IMG/VR virus record: IMGVR_UViG_2698536518_000008
Coordinates: 1 to 41,211 of that record
Reading direction: 5' to 3' (one strand)
Origin: a virus
Lineage: Duplodnaviria; Heunggongvirae; Uroviricota; Caudoviricetes
DNA: 41,211 nucleotides
Positions 1,434 to 9,186 of this stretch are shown in pieces (positions within the stretch are counted from its first letter, which is position 1; each line of letters starts with the position of its first letter). Both the position numbers and the translations under genes were made by a program. The notes beneath the pieces were generated by a model. The model had not been told where the DNA came from, ran no database searches, and saw only the letters and a list, made by a program, of their open reading frames with translations.

Positions 1434-1675
1434 CCAACCTGCCCGGGCAGGGAGCGGAGACGGCGCATGCCGGTCATCGCTGTGGCCACGTAGCTCGCCT
1501 TTCGGTTCACCACCTCCACCCAGACTTTCACGCCTTCAACCTTCACCGTATAAGTCTCTTTCATCTTGCTTCGCCCATAGTCGCCATATGTTTGCAAGTG
1601 AGCTGCCAGCGCAACATCGCAAGCGCGGCGACCAATAGGTGATTGCTTACTGCGATTAATCAGCTTCATCATCAC
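1430..1675 (-). CDS. Hypothetical phage protein
   Basis: 81-aa ORF, ATGA-type overlaps with both neighbours (translational coupling) in leftward operon. Confidence 0.4.
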   Translation of the reverse strand: MMMKLINRSKQSPIGRRACDVALAAHLQTYGDYGRSKMKETYTVKVEGVKVWVEVVNRKASYVATAMTGMRRLRSLPGQVG

Positions 1676-2577
1676 TGCACTCCCAAAGTGGCTACGACAT
1701 CACTCGCTGTTTCGCGGGTACTGCCTTTGCTGGATATAGCCCGGCGAGCACTGACGCGGTGCAGCGTGAAGCCGTGCTGTTCGTAAAGTTCAATTACGCG
1801 CGGAGCGGTAGAATTGCTGATCACCACTTTTGCCCCCCGCTGGTGGGCTGCCACACAGCTTTCCGTAAGTTCTACCTGGCTATCCCATGAGAACCCACCA
1901 GCCGCGTAGTTAGTGAAACCAGCGGTGCCGGGCAGCGGTTCATAAGGCGGATCGCAGTAAACGACGTCACCATCACCTGCCAGCGCGAGCGTGCGCCTGA
2001 AGCCTGCATTCATGAATACGCATGCGTGAGCCTTCCGCTTAAATGCCCTGATCTCTTCTTCCGGGAAATATGGCGCTTTATATTTCCCAAAGCCGACGTT
2101 AAAAAAACCGTCCAGGTTATAACGGATCAGCCCGTTGAAGCAGTGCCGGTTGAGGTAAAGGAGCGCTGCTGCGCGCTCAACCGCATCCAGCCGCTGCGCG
2201 TTGAATGCTTCACGAATTACCGTGTAGTTTTCGGCATCATTCAGATGCCTGAATGCCTTCATTGCCTCATAGATCACCGAGTCGGGGACCACCGCCAGCA
2301 TCTGATACAGGTTAATCAGGTCAGCGTTGACGTCAGCCAGAAGAAAGCGTTCGTGCTTGTCTGAGTTAAGGAACACCGAGCCGCCACCCACAAAAGGCTC
2401 AATAAGGCGTTTCCCTGCGGGGATCAGGCGATCCAGTTCCGGCAGCAGCGAATATTTGCCGCCAGCCCATTTAAGGAACGGGCGCTGCCAAATTCGTGAT
2501 GCTGGATTGTGTGCGGGTGGCAGCTTAACCGCTTCATTGAATTGCTCAACGCAAACACTTACAAATCCGTAATTCAT
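1672..2577 (-). CDS. dam: DNA adenine methyltransferase (Dam-like, N6-adenine MTase)
   Basis: 301 aa; DPPY catalytic motif (VVYCDPPYEP) and N-terminal SAM-binding FLKWAGGK motif characteristic of D12-class N6-adenine methyltransferases. Confidence 0.85.
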   Translation of the reverse strand: MNYGFVSVCVEQFNEAVKLPPAHNPASRIWQRPFLKWAGGKYSLLPELDRLIPAGKRLIEPFVGGGSVFLNSDKHERFLLADVNADLINLYQMLAVVPDSVIYEAMKAFRHLNDAENYTVIREAFNAQRLDAVERAAALLYLNRHCFNGLIRYNLDGFFNVGFGKYKAPYFPEEEIRAFKRKAHACVFMNAGFRRTLALAGDGDVVYCDPPYEPLPGTAGFTNYAAGGFSWDSQVELTESCVAAHQRGAKVVISNSTAPRVIELYEQHGFTLHRVSARRAISSKGSTRETASDVVATLGVQ

Positions 2578-4824: not shown

Positions 4825-5796
4825 TCAGTAATGAATTTTCGCGCAGGGGATCAGGTCATCTTTCAGAGCGGTAAGCACTTCGATAGCCTGCTCGCGGGTT
4901 AAGCTGGTTTGGCTGGTGAGCGCGTTAACGATGTTGGTGCCGACCGTCTTGCGGTGCTTAACGTCAGCTTCACGCTTTGCCTGCTCATCGGCGAGGCGCT
5001 TCTCTTCGGCCAGGCGGGCATCTTCGGCCTGTTTGGCCTTCAGGCGCTCGGCTTCAACCGCCGCGGCTTTTTCGCGTTCCGCCCGGGCTTCCGCTTCCTG
5101 CTTCTCGCGAGCTGCACGCTGTTCCGCTTCGACGCGCTGGCGCTCCGCCAGTTCAGCGCGGGCTTTCTCTTCGGCTTCACGGCGCGCTGCGGCTTCAATC
5201 TCCGCTTTGTGCTTCGCTTCGGCATCGCGGCGGGCTTGTTCTGCCGCTTCCTGTTTCAGCCGCTCATCACGTTCACGCTGAGCCTGTTCCGCCAGACGGC
5301 GCTGCTCTTCGCGGTCACGGTCAAAATCCTTGTTCATCAGTAGAGCCATTTCGTGGTCCGCTTCGAACTTGGCAGCCAGCTCCTGATCGAACCTGATGTT
5401 CATCTCCAGCGCTTCGGCGTGCATCGCGTTCATGGCTTCTTCAGCCTTAATGCGTTCCTGCTCGGCTTCCCATTCGGTGAGTGGGCGGCGGGTCGCATCG
5501 CGCAGCTCGTCGCAGGCATCAACGAATCGCTTAATTTCGGCCTCAGCCGGACGCACAGCCTCTTTCAGGCGCTTCAGGTACTCACGGCCCGGCTTTTCGA
5601 TTGCCGTCTTGCTGCGGGACACCTGCGCTGCCAGAGAGGCAACACGGTCACGGCCTTTCTTCGTGGACAGGTCCGGCACTTCGTTTACAGCCTGGCGGAT
5701 TTGCTCAAGGTACGCGTCAAGGCCGCCCGCTACGTAAAGCACTGGGGCCTGTTCCGGCTTGATTTCGATGACAGTTAAGTCCGTTACTTCGCTCAT
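4825..5796 (-). CDS. Coiled-coil protein with long E/A/R/K-rich low-complexity repeat region
   Basis: 323 aa; central ~170 aa is almost pure AEQ/RERDE/KAE heptad-like repeats (EAEQRAAREKQEAEARAEREK...); DNA is GC-rich and repetitive, generating many spurious ORFs on the other strand. Confidence 0.5.
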   Translation of the reverse strand: MSEVTDLTVIEIKPEQAPVLYVAGGLDAYLEQIRQAVNEVPDLSTKKGRDRVASLAAQVSRSKTAIEKPGREYLKRLKEAVRPAEAEIKRFVDACDELRDATRRPLTEWEAEQERIKAEEAMNAMHAEALEMNIRFDQELAAKFEADHEMALLMNKDFDRDREEQRRLAEQAQRERDERLKQEAAEQARRDAEAKHKAEIEAAARREAEEKARAELAERQRVEAEQRAAREKQEAEARAEREKAAAVEAERLKAKQAEDARLAEEKRLADEQAKREADVKHRKTVGTNIVNALTSQTSLTREQAIEVLTALKDDLIPCAKIHY

Positions 5797-5866
5797 GGTT
5801 TCTCCTGAAATTTGGATGTGCAGATCCCGCCCGCGTAATGCCAGGCCGATCGGTTGAATAGGGTGG

Positions 5867-6064
5867 TTACTGCTGCGCGATGGATTTCGCCGGGAACTCG
5901 CCGTTGCGGATGATGCTTTCTACCGGCCAGCACTCAGCTGACACTTTCTGCTCTGTAGCTGCCAGGCTGCATTCCTGCTGGCTGTCGTAAACGCCGAGAA
6001 TGACATCCTGATAATCACCGTTGGTCATTGCCACGGTCAGGACGAGTGCGAATAAAGTTTCCAT
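5867..6064 (-). CDS. Small hypothetical protein (65 aa from METLF start)
   Basis: Track ORF 5867..6118 probably starts at internal Met (METLFALVLTVAMTNGDY...), hydrophobic N-terminus; its ATG overlaps by 1 nt the stop of the upstream 41-aa ORF. Confidence 0.35.
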   Translation of the reverse strand: METLFALVLTVAMTNGDYQDVILGVYDSQQECSLAATEQKVSAECWPVESIIRNGEFPAKSIAQQ

Positions 6065-6192
6065 CAGTGAAGAGTCCTCCCGATGGCGACGGCGTAAAGG
6101 CGTTTTGCTTCTTCCCACGCCGGAGCATTGCGATGGAGCACCGCGAACGACGCGAGCCGTTGGGCCTCTCTGATCTGCTGCTGGTTTACCAT
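6064..6192 (-). CDS. Small hypothetical protein (41 aa), not in supplied ORF track
   Basis: Hand translation MVNQQQIREAQRLASFAVLHRNAPAWEEAKRLYAVAIGRTLH; preceded by strong Shine-Dalgarno (AAGAGGAAATC-ATG on minus strand). Confidence 0.3.
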   Translation of the reverse strand: MVNQQQIREAQRLASFAVLHRNAPAWEEAKRLYAVAIGRTLH

Positions 6193-6332
6193 GATTTCCT
6201 CTTGGCCTTATCGCGGCGAACGGAACGGTTAATACAAGACTTCAACGCATTTATTCAGTGTTTCAATGGGCGGTGGATGGCCGCCGGTTGTCATAAATGG
6301 GCAGACTCGAAAATCTGCCTATGTATGGCCGA

Positions 6333-6353
6333 TAAAAAACCCGCCGGAGCGGG
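6333..6353 (-). terminator. Intrinsic terminator immediately downstream of the 222-aa gene (tL1-like position)
   Basis: Plus-strand sequence AAAAAA-CCCGC-cgga-GCGGG; on the minus strand this is a GC hairpin followed by a U-run, abutting the stop codon at 6354-6356. Confidence 0.5.
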
Positions 6354-7022
6354 TCATTCATTCTTTGGTATGCCGCAAAGGGCGTTTAGCGTTTCAACGG
6401 GAATGGCAAGTGCGGTGCTGGTCGCTTCACGGCGTTCCACCTCAGGCAAATATGGCACTGCATCAGGCCACATCTCAGCCAGTTTTTTAACAGTTGAGAC
6501 TTTGGTTAGAGCACCTTTAACCTGCAATTGGAAGGCATCAACTTCATCGTAAAGAACGTTGATGGTTACCGTCGATTCAGTGAGTCGGTCGTGTAATTTT
6601 CCAACTTTCTTCAGCGTGCTGTAACTTTCAGGAACGAAACCCGAATCAATTACAGGCGCGAAGGAAGCTCCGAAGAACAGGTCGCTTTCAAGATCGTGCT
6701 TACCAATATGTTTTCCACGGTGGAGATAGCGATGATCCAAACCGTTCCTGGCTAATTCGTGATACTCACCATTAATAATGACCTTTAAAATTGCAGTTTT
6801 AGCGCCGACCTGCATCTTGATGAAGGAGTTATCTTTGAAATCTTCCCGAGCCTTAGTTATTTGCTCATCGCTAGTGTTTTCCTGCTTGAGCAATGCCTGT
6901 CGAATTTCTTCAACAATTTTCGCCCTCTCATTAACCGCAGCTTTCGCTTTCTCAAACAATGGGGATGCGAGAAGCAGGTTATGGCATAGCTGATTTTTAA
7001 TTTCGTTGTTAAGACGAATCAT
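6354..7022 (-). CDS. Unknown protein (222 aa), AT-rich accessory gene in pL-proximal (N-equivalent) position
   Basis: ORF with SD (GAGGGT) 6 nt upstream; visibly AT-richer than flanking genes; first gene downstream of the OL operator cluster and ~400-nt leader; no motif I can recognise. Confidence 0.55.
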   Translation of the reverse strand: MIRLNNEIKNQLCHNLLLASPLFEKAKAAVNERAKIVEEIRQALLKQENTSDEQITKAREDFKDNSFIKMQVGAKTAILKVIINGEYHELARNGLDHRYLHRGKHIGKHDLESDLFFGASFAPVIDSGFVPESYSTLKKVGKLHDRLTESTVTINVLYDEVDAFQLQVKGALTKVSTVKKLAEMWPDAVPYLPEVERREATSTALAIPVETLNALCGIPKNE

Positions 7023-7437
7023 TGACTTACCCTCTGTCGTTACCCGCTGATGCGGGAGAAATGCTTTGGCGATGTGGTAGGTGGGAGACCCATTTCGACC
7101 CGATTCGGCCTACTTATCTTCGGCAATAGCTCCTCGGGCCTCGCCGCTTTACGTGCGACATATTCCCGTCCATGAACCCTTCACCACATCCCATAACATT
7201 CCCTGTATTGGTCAGCGCCAACTCCCTGCCAGTGTTGCCCGTTCTCACGCCGTTCTCGCTCTCGCGCGGGGATACTCTCTCACCGACCGGATCGCACCCG
7301 GTGATACAGCACGTTTACGTGTAGGGGTCTTAACAGGTCATTGACGCTGTAAATCTGCATGTTGTTAAAAAGCAGGCGACTTGCTGTCCGCCGCTGGCTA
7401 ACTTCGCTCAGCTGTCGATGTTTCGTTTCGATGGGGT

Positions 7438-7520
7438 AAATTTAGCGTGATGCTAAATTATGCGCAATAGCAAAATGCTAAATTGTTGAATGGTTTTATT
7501 TAGCGTATTGATTAATAAGC
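7438..7520. promoter_or_regulatory. OL-like operator cluster / leftward early promoter region
   Basis: Perfect palindrome AATTTAGC-N5-GCTAAATT at 7439-7459 plus two degenerate copies (about 7466-7486 and 7494-7514); same half-site as in the cI-cro intergenic region. Confidence 0.55.
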
Positions 7521-7564
7521 GATTAAAAATTTACAGCGAAGGAATTCGGGACGTAAAAAAGCCC

Positions 7565-7588
7565 GCGCGATGGCGGGCTTGAGGGGTT
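7565..7588 (-). terminator. Intrinsic terminator downstream of cI
   Basis: Plus-strand AAAAAA-GCCCGC-gcgatg-GCGGGC; on minus strand GC-rich hairpin followed by U6, 10 nt after the cI stop codon. Confidence 0.6.
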
Positions 7589-7598
7589 TTGCGTGAGG

Positions 7599-8276
7599 TT
7601 ATGGGATGTTTAGTATTTTGGCATCAACCACAACGCCGATGATTTTGCAGTTTCCATTAATTTCTAGCATTGGATATGCGGGGTTAAGGGGCTTTAGGAA
7701 GCGTCTGCCGGCATCGATTACAAGCTTCTTAAAGGTCGCTTCGTTATCGCCTTCTAGCTTCGCGACAACCAGCTTTCCGTTGCGCGGCTCGACTTCAGGA
7801 TCAACAAGTATCGCTGCTCCCTCGGGTATGCTCAGTCCAGCCGGGGAGGTCATAGAATCCCCTTTAACGTCCAGCCAGAATGAATCTTCTGAGCAGTCAA
7901 CAGTCGTGTCATACCAGCGATCTATCGCTCTTCGGTGATAAGGTTCTACAGCTTCCATCCATTGCCCCGCGCTTACCCAGCTGATTACAGGATAACTTCC
8001 TTTTGTCTCGTTCAGTCCTCGAAATGCAACGTTCGAAGGTTCTTCACTGGCGTGTAAAACATCCATCCAGCCAAAAGGCAGATCAAGCGCAGTTTCAATT
8101 TTGCGAGCCATCTTATCGCCGATATTGCGATGAGGGTTTGGTCCCAGTAGCTGGCTAAGCGCAGCCGGACTTGTCTCGATGAGCTCGGCAAACTGCGCTT
8201 TGGTCATTCCAGACTCGTGCTGACGCTTCTCGTACAGCGCTTCCAGGTTGGCTTTTCTGATTTCTTTATTTTCCAT
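7599..8276 (-). CDS. cI: CI-type prophage repressor (HTH + S24 LexA-like peptidase domain)
   Basis: Track ORF 7599..8393; likely start at internal Met 8276 (MENKEIRKANLEALYEKRQ...); N-terminal HTH, C-terminal autocleavage domain with GDSM serine motif and downstream lysine (VVAKLEG); divergent from cro. Confidence 0.85.
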   Translation of the reverse strand: MENKEIRKANLEALYEKRQHESGMTKAQFAELIETSPAALSQLLGPNPHRNIGDKMARKIETALDLPFGWMDVLHASEEPSNVAFRGLNETKGSYPVISWVSAGQWMEAVEPYHRRAIDRWYDTTVDCSEDSFWLDVKGDSMTSPAGLSIPEGAAILVDPEVEPRNGKLVVAKLEGDNEATFKKLVIDAGRRFLKPLNPAYPMLEINGNCKIIGVVVDAKILNIP

Positions 8277-8292
8277 ACCTGCATTGTTACTG

Positions 8293-8360
8293 CTTTTAGC
8301 AAAATGATAAATGTGCAAATTGCTAAATGATGCTTGCGTAGTATTTAGCATAACGCTAAA
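8293..8360. promoter_or_regulatory. OR-like operator cluster with divergent promoters (pRM/pR equivalents)
   Basis: TTTAGC-N5-GCTAAA perfect site at 8344-8360 and TTTAGC-N5-GATAAA at 8295-8311, further partial copy around 8316-8338; located between divergent cI and cro starts. Confidence 0.6.
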
Positions 8361-8392
8361 CTCCAAATCAAACGACTCACCCGGAGACACCA

Positions 8393-8626
8393 ATGAGCAC
8401 TGAACTACACCGCTGGCGCAAGGCCGCCACTACCGACGAATGGGCGCAGCTCGCAAAGTTGGCTAACACGACGCCAGGTTACCTGGACCAGATCGCCTAC
8501 GGAAATCGCCGGGCATCTCCAGAAATGGCATCTGCTATCGAGAAAGGCACGAAGAATTTTCACCGCCAGGCTCCGGTCCTAAAAGAAAGCCTGGTATTCG
8601 CATCGCCGCGTGATACTGCGGCCTAA
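8393..8626 (+). CDS. cro: Cro-like HTH regulator
   Basis: 77 aa; first rightward gene after operator cluster; HTH-like segment EWAQLAKLANTTPGYLDQIAYG. Confidence 0.7.
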   Translation: MSTELHRWRKAATTDEWAQLAKLANTTPGYLDQIAYGNRRASPEMASAIEKGTKNFHRQAPVLKESLVFASPRDTAA

Positions 8627-8643
8627 CCACGAAAGGGAAAGCA

Positions 8644-9186
8644 ATGCATTCACTTGCGTATCAACACAATACCGGAATACACCCGGGAGCGATGATAAAC
8701 CGCGCTCAAGCTAAAGCGACGCCGGACCACGAAAAGATCCGCGATGCGGTCCGTGCCTGGTCATCGGCGCTGGATAATCAGGACGTGGTGTCAGCGCTGA
8801 TCATCAACGAATACCGGGAGCAGGGCGGGACCGCCATCAGCTTTCCGGACGACATCAGCCGGGCGCGCCAGAAGCTGTTCCGCTTCCTGGATAACCGCTT
8901 CGACTCTGAGCAGTACCGCGAGAACGTGCGCCAGCTGACGCCCGCAATCATGGCCGTTTTGCCGCTGGAGTATCGCCATCGACTTCTTCCTGAGGACAGT
9001 TTTATGTCCCGCTTAGCTCGACTTGAGAAAGAAACGAGCGAGGCGAAAGTGGCCGTTGCGATGAACGCCCCGCGTCACCAGAAGCTCAAGGAACTCAGTG
9101 AGGGGATTGTAGAGATGTTCCGTGTCGACCCGGATCTGACCGCGCCGCTGATGGCTATGGTCACTTCGATGTTGGGGGTTATGTGA
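8644..9186 (+). CDS. Early regulatory protein (CII-like / YdaT-like by position)
   Basis: 180 aa immediately after cro, SD-like GGGAAAG upstream; assignment by synteny and vague recollection of long CII/YdaT-type proteins, not by firm motif. Confidence 0.4.
   Translation: MHSLAYQHNTGIHPGAMINRAQAKATPDHEKIRDAVRAWSSALDNQDVVSALIINEYREQGGTAISFPDDISRARQKLFRFLDNRFDSEQYRENVRQLTPAIMAVLPLEYRHRLLPEDSFMSRLARLEKETSEAKVAVAMNAPRHQKLKELSEGIVEMFRVDPDLTAPLMAMVTSMLGVM

What the first reader, a model, noticed from the sequence alone, without database searches (positions are those of the whole stretch)
6354..7437. AT-rich 222-aa unknown gene in the N-equivalent position with ~400-nt structured leader and immediate terminator
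Downstream (leftward) of the OL-like operator cluster there is a ~400-nt GC-rich, ORF-poor leader, then a 222-aa AT-rich ORF with no recognisable motifs, then an intrinsic terminator abutting its stop codon (6333-6353). This copies the lambda pL-N-tL1 layout, yet the protein is nothing like N (too large, not Arg-rich), and no nutR-sized space exists between cro and the next gene. Either the phage uses a different antitermination strategy (protein or cis-acting RNA in the leader) or this is a lysogeny-expressed accessory gene (superinfection exclusion or anti-defence) placed at the first pL position.
Basis: partly seen in the sequence, partly recalled or inferred. Interest (0 to 1): 0.6.

Follow-up and report, generated by a model that had tools for sequence, protein, structure and literature searches.

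The report
Nmad5 gene swapped into N slot
The "unknown" gene is a member of the widespread but uncharacterised phage Nmad5 family. It sits where phage phi80 keeps its N gene, behind phi80's own leader and in front of a shared terminator, so the layout is inherited mosaic rather than a new kind of system.

Summary
The ORF (6354-7022, minus strand), the ~410-nt leader, the terminator abutting the stop codon and the three-operator OL cluster are all real. The protein is not motif-free: it matches Pfam PF18757 (Nmad5) over its full length (E=5e-29), and RefSeq names identical E. coli prophage genes that way.

The leader (7018-7439) is 99% identical to the phage phi80 pL-nutL-N leader. Identity stops 3 nt before the ATG. 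The terminator block (6269-6354) is 100% identical to HK639. A 42-nt hairpin+SD "junction" (7026-7067) precedes at least 23 unrelated first genes in related phages. The gene therefore occupies a hypervariable first slot of the pL operon, with N lost.

Nmad5 is not an N substitute. It co-occurs with true N proteins in related prophages. In several unrelated phage lineages it lies next to exonuclease/annealase/SSB/polymerase genes. Its predicted fold is a coiled-coil hairpin with no enzyme-like relatives.

It lies under pL/OL, so it should be immediate-early, not lysogen-expressed. Its function is still unknown; the best guess is a non-catalytic DNA-metabolism or counter-defence accessory.

The leader core is a structured RNA with covariation and an rrn-like boxA. 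Most phages carrying it have no recognisable N, which is the one open point.

The parts
7440..7516 (.). OL operator cluster: three 19-bp operators at 7440-7458, 7465-7483 and 7498-7516, consensus ATTTAGCNNNNTGCTAAAT
   Evidence: Repeat families D1/D2 and inverted repeats shared with three OR copies at 8294-8361.
7439..7467 (-). Predicted pL promoter: -35 TTGCGC at 7467-7462, 17-nt spacer, -10 TAAATT at 7444-7439. It is overlapped by OL1 and OL2.
   Evidence: Read from the sequence. The -10 coincides with the annotated phi80 pL -10 when coordinates are mapped (window = L001+4076). It falls below the strict consensus scan threshold.
7023..7432 (-). About 410 nt of pL leader, a mosaic of known lambdoid pL leader modules
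   Evidence: 7018-7439 is 99% identical to phi80. 7058-7374 is 95% identical to PA2-type Stx phages. 7225-7439 is 98% identical to HK225. 7064-7193 is 91% identical to the HK97/933W-type N leader. 7389-7440 is 92% identical to HK639.
7362..7374 (-). boxA, UGCUUUUUAACAA. The rrn consensus (from my own knowledge) is UGCUCUUUAACAA, and PA2-type phages carry that exact sequence.
   Evidence: Alignments A1/A4. Annotated as putative nutL boxA in phi80. It is the only boxA-like site in the window.
7214..7348 (-). Structured RNA core of the leader. It contains a boxB-like mini-hairpin CACG-UAAA-CGUG (7321-7310), a covarying helix (7309-7295 paired with 7289-7275), a GC hairpin (7269-7250) and closing helices.
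   Evidence: RNAalifold on 62 sequences. Pair counts: 99.5% of cells paired, 6 pairs with changes on both sides, 0/500 shuffles reach this, slid controls 0. Columns 118-151 of A4 were fixed by the search pattern and carry no information.
7026..7067 (-). Junction element: hairpin CCCGC-AUCA-GCGGG followed by SD GAGGG (7034-7030). It acts as a portable linker in front of alternative first genes.
   Evidence: The same element lies directly before phi80 N, before Nmad5 in 6 other loci and before HK639 gene 44. In 57 of 120 IMG/VR contigs it precedes at least 23 unrelated ORF families.
6354..7022 (-). Nmad5-family gene, 222 aa
   Evidence: PF18757 E=5.4e-29, full length. phrog_1965 E=2.8e-48. 99.9% identical prophage genes are named Nmad5 by PGAP. 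Purifying selection. AF2 model pLDDT 83.7.
6330..6355 (-). Intrinsic terminator (tL1 equivalent) overlapping the stop codon
   Evidence: 7-bp stem, loop of 4, U6. dG -16.1 kcal/mol. 6269-6354 is 100% identical to the HK639 block that carries two annotated terminators.
6262..6319 (-). Two further hairpins downstream of tL1, a possible second terminator
   Evidence: MFE -21 kcal/mol, z -3.75. Homologous to the second annotated HK639 terminator.

Best explanation
The window is a phi80-related lambdoid prophage.

What is shown:
- Its first leftward gene slot holds a Nmad5-family gene (PF18757) instead of the phi80 N gene. The slot is bounded upstream by a conserved hairpin+SD junction element and downstream by a shared intrinsic terminator block.
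- The ~410-nt leader is the inherited phi80-type pL leader. It carries an rrn-like boxA, a boxB-like hairpin, a covarying helix and an HK97/933W-type N-leader segment.

What is inferred from the layout:
- The gene came to occupy the slot by modular recombination at the conserved junction and terminator sequences.
- pL is overlapped by the operators and the terminator abuts the stop codon. The gene should therefore be silent in the lysogen. On induction or infection it should be the only product of the immediate-early pL-to-tL1 transcript.

What is inferred from synteny and fold, at about 0.4 probability:
- Nmad5 is a non-catalytic protein: a long helical hairpin, a beta insert and an invariant C-terminal tail that looks like a partner-binding peptide.
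- It works with the phage exonuclease/annealase/SSB/polymerase machinery on incoming or replicating phage DNA. For example, it could recruit that machinery or shield DNA ends.

It is not an N-type antiterminator and is probably not a base-modifying enzyme.
For: Identity of the gene:
- Pfam and PHROG hits.
- PGAP names the 99.9% identical prophage genes Nmad5.
- The family has 437 representatives at E<=1e-10, almost all single-domain proteins of 190-250 aa.

Cassette exchange:
- phi80 identity runs from the pL -10 to 3 nt before the ATG, then resumes downstream of the terminator.
- The terminator block is 100% identical to HK639, where an unrelated 149-aa gene fills the slot.
- The junction element precedes at least 23 unrelated ORF families.
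- Junction, Nmad5 and terminator travel together: among the 19 IMG/VR loci with close homologues, 16 carry the junction and all 19 the terminator, behind different leaders and immunity regions.

Not N:
- No arginine-rich motif; pI 6.7.
- An 80% homologue lies downstream of a true N (PF25694, E=2e-13).
- A 38% homologue lies directly after a phi80-type N.
- The family also occurs in Guernseyvirinae, Jilinvirus and Dhillonvirus.

Link to DNA metabolism:
- In at least half of 80 IMG/VR loci, Nmad5 is on the same strand and next to PD-(D/E)XK or YqaJ exonuclease plus annealase or SSB, sometimes with PolA, in at least 5 lineages.

Non-enzymatic fold:
- AF2 pLDDT 83.7.
- No Foldseek PDB hit and no PDB sequence relative.

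Real gene: pN 0.12-0.14 against pS 0.82-0.84.
Against: - No experiment or solved structure assigns a function to any Nmad5 protein.
- In Dhillonvirus the gene lies alone among head genes on the opposite strand. There it is dispensable and toxic when cloned, and a missense change in it lets the phage escape the Tmn defence (PMC11846954). That fits a defence-interaction role at least as well as a recombination role.
- In the window a strong terminator separates the gene from the Rec module.
- The synteny panel used tblastn against a hand-made reference set. About 20 of the 80 loci gave no panel hit.
- With no N in the window, how transcription passes tL1 is unexplained.
Confidence: 0.8

Rival explanations
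1. Nmad5 is a counter-defence or host-takeover protein. It is made first after induction or infection to neutralise or evade a host immune system.
For: - It occupies a hypervariable first-gene slot that is otherwise filled mostly by small, often acidic, unrelated ORFs.
- Its position is immediate-early.
- Its GC content is lower than its neighbours, suggesting horizontal acquisition.
- In Dhillonvirus, Tmn escape mutations map to nmad5 and the gene is toxic to clone (PMC11846954).
Against: - Deleting nmad5 did not change Tmn sensitivity (PMC11846954).
- Its synteny with exonuclease/annealase/SSB genes across distant phage lineages is unusual for anti-defence cargo.
- There is no PADLOC hit, though none would be expected for an anti-defence gene.
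- The family is large, with a conserved length and an invariant tail.
Confidence: 0.3
2. Nmad5 is the functional replacement of N. It would be a new kind of antiterminator protein acting at the phi80-type nutL so that pL transcription passes tL1.
For: - It sits exactly in the phi80 N slot behind the same SD.
- nutL-like boxA and boxB are retained.
- No N homologue or arginine-rich-motif ORF is found elsewhere in the window.
- Strong terminators follow it.
Against: - It co-occurs with a Pfam N_peptide protein and with a phi80-type N.
- It occurs in other phage groups (Guernseyvirinae, Jilinvirus, Dhillonvirus) without this leader.
- The same leader core is followed by dozens of unrelated first genes.
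- The protein is near neutral and not Arg-rich.
Confidence: 0.05
3. Nmad5 is a component of a DNA base-modification pathway, as its family name implies.
For: - In M6/SN1-like Pseudomonas phages it adjoins the thymidine hypermodification cassette (PMC9476957).
- A Dam-type orphan methyltransferase lies in the same pL operon at 1672-2577.
- Methyltransferase or Mom-like genes occur within a few kb in some other loci.
Against: - The predicted fold is not enzyme-like, and there is no nucleotide-binding or catalytic relative.
- In most contexts there is no adjacent modification enzyme.
- The Dam gene here is 4 kb away and beyond the terminators.
- Methyltransferases are common in phage early regions anyway.
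Confidence: 0.1
4. The arrangement is a dead end: a defective recombinant prophage that lost N, so the gene and leader have no current role.
For: - No N is present.
- Tandem terminators block the rest of the pL operon.
Against: - The same arrangement is found at 99.9% identity in at least 4 complete E. coli genomes from different sources and in about 10 IMG/VR contigs.
- The 90%-identity protein cluster has 285 member sequences.
- Purifying selection acts on the gene.
- The rest of the window encodes an apparently complete phage, including integrase, Rec module, replication genes and Q.
Confidence: 0.05

Closest known systems
Phage phi80 early left region: pL - putative nutL (boxA, core) - N - tL1A/tL1B (GenBank JX871397, M11919)
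   Same: - 99% nucleotide identity from the pL -10 through boxA and the nutL core to the SD (422 nt).
- 93% identity again downstream of the terminator.
- The same cro/cII (YdaT-like) junction.
- No nutR annotated, and no room for one.
   Different: - The 98-aa N gene is replaced by the 222-aa Nmad5 gene.
- The immunity region (cI, operators, cro) is of another specificity.
- The terminator sequence is of the HK639 type, not phi80 tL1A.
Pfam PF18757 Nmad5 / phrog_1965 (for example Dhillonvirus nmad5, Edwardsiella phage eiAU, Pseudomonas phage M6/SN1)
   Same: - Full-length profile match.
- Same length class.
- Same invariant C-terminal motif W-P...LN..CG.P.
- Predicted structure matches only other family members in BFVD.
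   Different: - Only 22-50% identical to the phage members outside its own prophage clade.
- Here it is the first gene of a lambdoid pL operon, behind a nut-like leader.
- There is no adjacent base-modification cassette.
Phage HK639 pL region (putL-like antiterminator RNA, gene 44, two terminators)
   Same: - The first 52 nt of the leader, the junction element and the 86-nt terminator block are shared at 92-100% identity.
- The slot architecture is the same.
   Different: - HK639 has a put-like RNA where the window has the boxA/boxB-like core.
- The HK639 slot holds an unrelated 149-aa, apparently membrane, protein.
Lambda pL-nutL-N-tL1 with its long N leader (known from the literature)
   Same: - An immediate-early transcript ending at tL1.
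- boxA plus an A-rich-loop hairpin in a long structured leader.
- One gene before the terminator.
   Different: - No N protein.
- boxA and the hairpin are 40 nt apart, against about 8 nt in lambda (my own knowledge).
- No nutR counterpart.

Membership tests
Nmad5 (Pfam PF18757) | Full-length match to the family profile above the gathering score | tested here: met
   102.2 bits against a cut-off of 27. Residues 2-219 match profile positions 1-206 of 206. phrog_1965 gives 166 bits.
Nmad5 (Pfam PF18757) | Conserved family motifs, namely the C-terminal W-P and LN..CG.P | tested here: met
   G85, G94, W185, A206, L212, N213, C216, G217 and P219 are invariant in 42 sequences at 20-84% identity.
Nmad5 (Pfam PF18757) | Genomic association with nucleotide or base-modification genes, the basis of the family name | tested here: inconclusive
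   The only candidate is a Dam-type methyltransferase 4 kb away in the same operon. Most related loci show exonuclease, annealase, SSB or PolA neighbours instead.
Lambdoid N antiterminator proteins | N-terminal arginine-rich motif, or a match to an N family profile | tested here: not met
   No PF25694 or other N hit. 10 Arg of 222 residues, pI 6.7. No similarity to phi80 N.
Lambdoid N antiterminator proteins | Position: first gene after pL and nutL, followed by tL1 | tested here: met
Lambdoid N antiterminator proteins | Mutually exclusive with other N genes in one operon | tested here: not met
   Homologues lie downstream of an N_peptide protein (L009/L158) and of a phi80-type N (L212).
nut site (leader core) | boxA close to the consensus | tested here: met
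   UGCUUUUUAACAA at 7374-7362. Variants in 62 sequences keep GCU..UUAA.AA invariant while the upstream flank diverges.
nut site (leader core) | boxB hairpin with a purine/A-rich loop | tested here: inconclusive
   A 4-bp stem CACG/CGUG carries loops UAAA, AAAA, AGAAA, AAAAA or AUAAA. One compensatory change and one breaking change are seen. It lies 40 nt from boxA.
nut site (leader core) | Cognate N protein encoded by the phage | tested here: not met
   None in the window. Only 9 of 120 contigs that carry the core encode a phi80-type N, and none encodes another known N.
put-type cis-acting antiterminator RNA (HK022, HK639) | Sequence or structure similarity to a known put RNA | tested here: not met
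   The window matches HK639 only before and after its putL-like element. Rfam gave no significant hit in the leader.
put-type cis-acting antiterminator RNA (HK022, HK639) | Promotes terminator read-through in cis without a phage protein | not testable with these tools
   Needs a reporter or in vitro transcription assay.
Intrinsic terminator | GC-rich stem-loop followed by a U tract | tested here: met
   7-bp stem (5 GC pairs), loop of 4, U6, dG -16.1 kcal/mol.

The most novel reading that the evidence does not exclude
The conserved leader core (7214-7374) may be a self-sufficient, Nus-factor-assisted cis-acting antitermination RNA. It would be a third class beside N/nut and put, letting pL transcription pass tL1 without any phage protein. 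The core comprises an rrn-type boxA, an A-rich-loop mini-hairpin and a covarying helix. Under this reading the first gene slot is free to hold arbitrary cargo such as Nmad5, and phi80 'N', which has no arginine-rich motif and no family, would be just another cargo or a modulator.
Probability: 0.2. Interest if true: 0.7.

Novelty: new member of a known kind. Interest (0 to 1): 0.35.

Why it matters
As found, the result is mostly a tidy explanation. The gene is an already named family member, although the family has no known function. The layout is inherited from phi80-like phages by cassette exchange.

Three things are useful beyond that:
1. It marks a precisely bounded, hypervariable first-gene slot in lambdoid pL operons (junction hairpin+SD ... 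shared terminator). This is a good place to mine immediate-early accessory or anti-defence genes.
2. It places Nmad5 as an immediate-early product linked by synteny to recombination and replication genes, with a fold that argues against the 'modification enzyme' label used in recent papers.
3. It shows that a covarying, boxA-containing leader RNA is shared by at least 120 viral contigs, 189 phage records (about 110 of them Stx-converting phages by name) and 623 E. coli genomes, most without any recognisable N. This makes early antitermination in these phages directly testable.

Tried and rejected
- Rfam scan of 5800-8800 at permissive E-values found only sub-threshold chance or terminator-driven hits: Trp_leader, isrK and AgvB at 18-23 bits.
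- tblastn of phi80 N against the window gave nothing.
- A scan of all ORFs for arginine-rich N-termini gave only out-of-frame or spurious hits. The Arg-rich extension of the DUF1482 ORF is not real: the true start is ATG 6064 with a strong SD, and it is coupled to a 42-aa ORF.
- PADLOC and NCBIfam gave no hits for Nmad5.
- Papers on Eru-type and O104 Stx phages do not discuss N or nutL. The phi80 genome paper is not held.
- A small protein encoded in the leader was rejected. The 44-aa sense ORF (7114-7248) and the 87-aa antisense ORF (7081-7344) both run past the point (~7211) where related leaders diverge.
- The PA2-type Stx phages do not hide an N in the 293-nt gap after the leader. No suitable ORF is there, and the next gene is a Rha-family protein.

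Full report
**Observation**

- The minus-strand ORF 6354..7022 (222 aa, ATG) is present as described. SD GAGGG lies 7 nt upstream of the ATG.
- Its TGA stop overlaps a 7-bp GC-rich stem followed by U6 at 6355-6330 (dG -16.1 kcal/mol). Two more hairpins follow at 6262-6319.
- Upstream, three 19-bp operators (7440-7458, 7465-7483, 7498-7516) share a consensus with three copies between cI and cro (8294-8361). The OL cluster is therefore real.
- A plausible pL (TTGCGC-17-TAAATT, 7467-7439) lies under OL1/OL2. This gives a leader of about 410 nt.
- Composition differences are real but modest: ORF GC 0.447, leader 0.549, window 0.512.

**The protein**

- Contrary to the finding, the protein is recognisable. 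It matches Pfam PF18757 'Nmad5' over its whole length (E=5.4e-29) and phrog_1965 (E=2.8e-48).
- Prophage genes 99.9% identical in complete E. coli genomes are named 'Nmad5 family putative nucleotide modification protein' by PGAP.
- The family is large. A profile search of 1.84 billion representatives gave 437 hits at E<=1e-10, almost all stand-alone proteins of 190-250 aa.
- The gene is under purifying selection: pN 0.12-0.14 against saturated pS 0.82-0.84 versus homologues of 80-84% identity.
- An AlphaFold2 model built on 42 sequences (pLDDT 83.7, pTM 0.74) has four parts:
  - a long antiparallel helical hairpin (6-61 and 143-172);
  - a beta insert (78-137);
  - a small C-terminal helical region;
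  - an invariant tail (A206, L212, N213, C216, G217, P219) that follows a low-confidence linker.
- The only functional paper found reports the following for Dhillonvirus nmad5 (PMC11846954):
  - a K-to-E change lets the phage escape the Tmn defence;
  - deletion of the gene is viable and does not change Tmn sensitivity;
  - the gene is toxic to clone.
- In M6/SN1-like phages the gene adjoins a thymidine hypermodification cassette (PMC9476957). Gene-neighbourhood association of this kind appears to be the basis of the family name.

**The leader and terminator are inherited modules**

- Window 7018-7439 is 99% identical to phage phi80, from the annotated pL -10 through the annotated putative nutL boxA and 'core' to the SD of phi80 N. 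Identity ends 3 nt before the ATG.
- Homology to phi80 resumes at 6197-6314, downstream of the terminator.
- The terminator block 6269-6354 is 100% identical to HK639. There it carries two annotated terminators and follows an unrelated 149-aa gene.
- Sub-segments of the leader recur elsewhere:
  - 7058-7374 in more than 160 phage records, mostly Stx-converting phages of the PA2/TL-2011c type, at 95%, unannotated there;
  - 7225-7439 in HK225;
  - 7064-7193 in HK97, HK106 and 933W-like phages, where it ends 17 nt before N.
- A 42-nt junction element (7026-7067) consists of the hairpin CCCGC-AUCA-GCGGG plus the SD. It stands directly in front of phi80 N, Nmad5 in six other loci and HK639 gene 44.
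- In 57 of 120 IMG/VR contigs that carry the leader core, the junction precedes at least 23 unrelated, mostly small ORF families.
- Junction, Nmad5 and terminator travel together behind different leaders and immunity regions. Among the 19 IMG/VR loci with close homologues, 16 carry the junction and all 19 the terminator.
- The gene therefore sits in a hypervariable first-gene slot, and the exchange points are the conserved linkers.

**Is Nmad5 an N substitute? No.**

- The window has no phi80-N homologue and no credible ORF with an arginine-rich motif.
- An 80% Nmad5 homologue lies downstream of a true N (PF25694, E=2e-13) and two small ORFs in the same pL operon.
- A 38% homologue lies directly after a phi80-type N.
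- In other E. coli prophages a 70-aa ORF precedes it.
- Nmad5 also occurs in phages without this leader:
  - in Guernseyvirinae and Jilinvirus it sits near the head of early operons, upstream of a PD-(D/E)XK exonuclease and a gp2.5-like annealase or SSB;
  - in Dhillonvirus it lies alone among head genes on the opposite strand.
- In a sample of 80 IMG/VR loci, at least half show Nmad5 on the same strand and next to exonuclease plus annealase or SSB, sometimes with PolA, in at least five lineages.
- This conserved synteny, the non-enzymatic fold and the invariant tail lead me to favour a non-catalytic accessory of phage DNA recombination or replication, at about 0.4.
- A counter-defence role is the main rival, at about 0.3. 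The two are not exclusive.

**Expression**

- pL is the only recognisable promoter and it is covered by operators. The consensus scan found no promoter in 5700-8700.
- The gene should therefore be repressed in lysogens. It should be the sole product of the immediate-early pL-to-tL1 transcript.
- This contradicts the 'lysogeny-expressed' option. It is an inference from the layout, not a measurement.

**The leader core**

- Alignment of 62 distinct copies shows conservation that starts exactly at boxA. The window has UGCUUUUUAACAA. PA2-type phages carry UGCUCUUUAACAA, which is the rrn consensus as I know it. Conservation ends near 7211.
- RNAalifold and explicit pair counts support a multi-helix fold:
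  - 99.5% of cells are paired;
  - six pairs have compensatory changes in at least two lineages;
  - 0 of 500 shuffles reach this, and slid controls give none.
- Five of the six covarying pairs lie in the helix 7309-7295 / 7289-7275. One lies in the boxB-like hairpin CACG-(U/A-rich loop)-CGUG at 7321-7310.
- Caveat: the sequences were collected with an exact 34-nt seed inside the core, so those columns are uninformative and diversity is limited.
- Of the 120 contigs, 91 have at least 1.5 kb of sequence downstream of the core. Only 9 of the 120 encode a phi80-type N, and none encodes a lambda-, HK97- or P22-like N.
- None of 40 representative downstream ORFs hits a Pfam N family.
- The window has no second boxA, and phi80 has no annotated nutR.
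- phi80 N itself has no arginine-rich motif and no family.
- How these phages pass tL1 is thus unexplained. A cis-acting, Nus-assisted RNA is a live possibility, but it is untested. By sequence the core is unrelated to the HK639 put-like RNA.

**Verdict**

It is not an antiterminator protein and is probably not lysogen-expressed.
- The gene is a new member of a known, functionally uncharacterised family, in a known type of regulatory layout.
- Interest is moderate to low for the gene as such. The open question about the leader RNA is the most novel thread.

Noticed in passing
window 7026-7067 (-): A 42-nt junction element (hairpin CCCGC-AUCA-GCGGG plus SD GAGGG) recurs directly upstream of at least 23 unrelated first genes of pL operons in related phages. 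These include phi80 N and HK639 gene 44. It looks like a recombination linker or portable translation-initiation cassette.
   Followed up: partly
Only 9 of the 120 contigs encode a phi80-type N and none encodes another known N.
   Followed up: partly
L001 2650-2946 (phi80 N); L212 5156-5470: The protein annotated as phi80 N has no arginine-rich motif and matches no Pfam or NCBIfam family. It sits in the same hypervariable slot as the other cargo genes. A roughly 55% identical homologue in L212 shows it is a real protein family. Whether it acts as an antiterminator could not be checked here.
   Followed up: no
window 6064-6192 (-) and 5867-6064 (-): A 42-aa ORF with a good SD (AAGAGGA) ends in TGATG, overlapping the ATG of the DUF1482 gene, whose own SD is GGGAGGA. 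The longer GTG-started DUF1482 ORF with an Arg-rich N-terminus is an artefact of ORF calling.
   Followed up: yes
window 7599-8393 (-): The cI (S24/LexA-like) ORF as listed, and the PGAP call in identical prophages, run through the OR operators at 8294-8361. The true start is probably ATG 8276 (MENKEIRK...).
   Followed up: partly
window 4825-5796 (-): A 323-aa coiled-coil protein rich in charged residues (phrog_1376, function unknown) lies between the DUF1482 gene and gamL. Relatives of it follow Nmad5 in most lambdoid loci and in some distant ones (L205, L211-L213).
   Followed up: no
window 1672-2577 (-): A Dam-type (D12 class) orphan N6-adenine methyltransferase lies at the distal end of the pL operon. 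It is the only nucleotide-modification gene near Nmad5.
   Followed up: partly
window 6354-7022 (-), residues 203-222: The C-terminal tail is invariant across homologues of 20-84% identity (A206, L212, N213, C216, G217, P219). It follows a low-confidence linker. This is the signature of a short peptide that docks onto a conserved partner protein.
   Followed up: no
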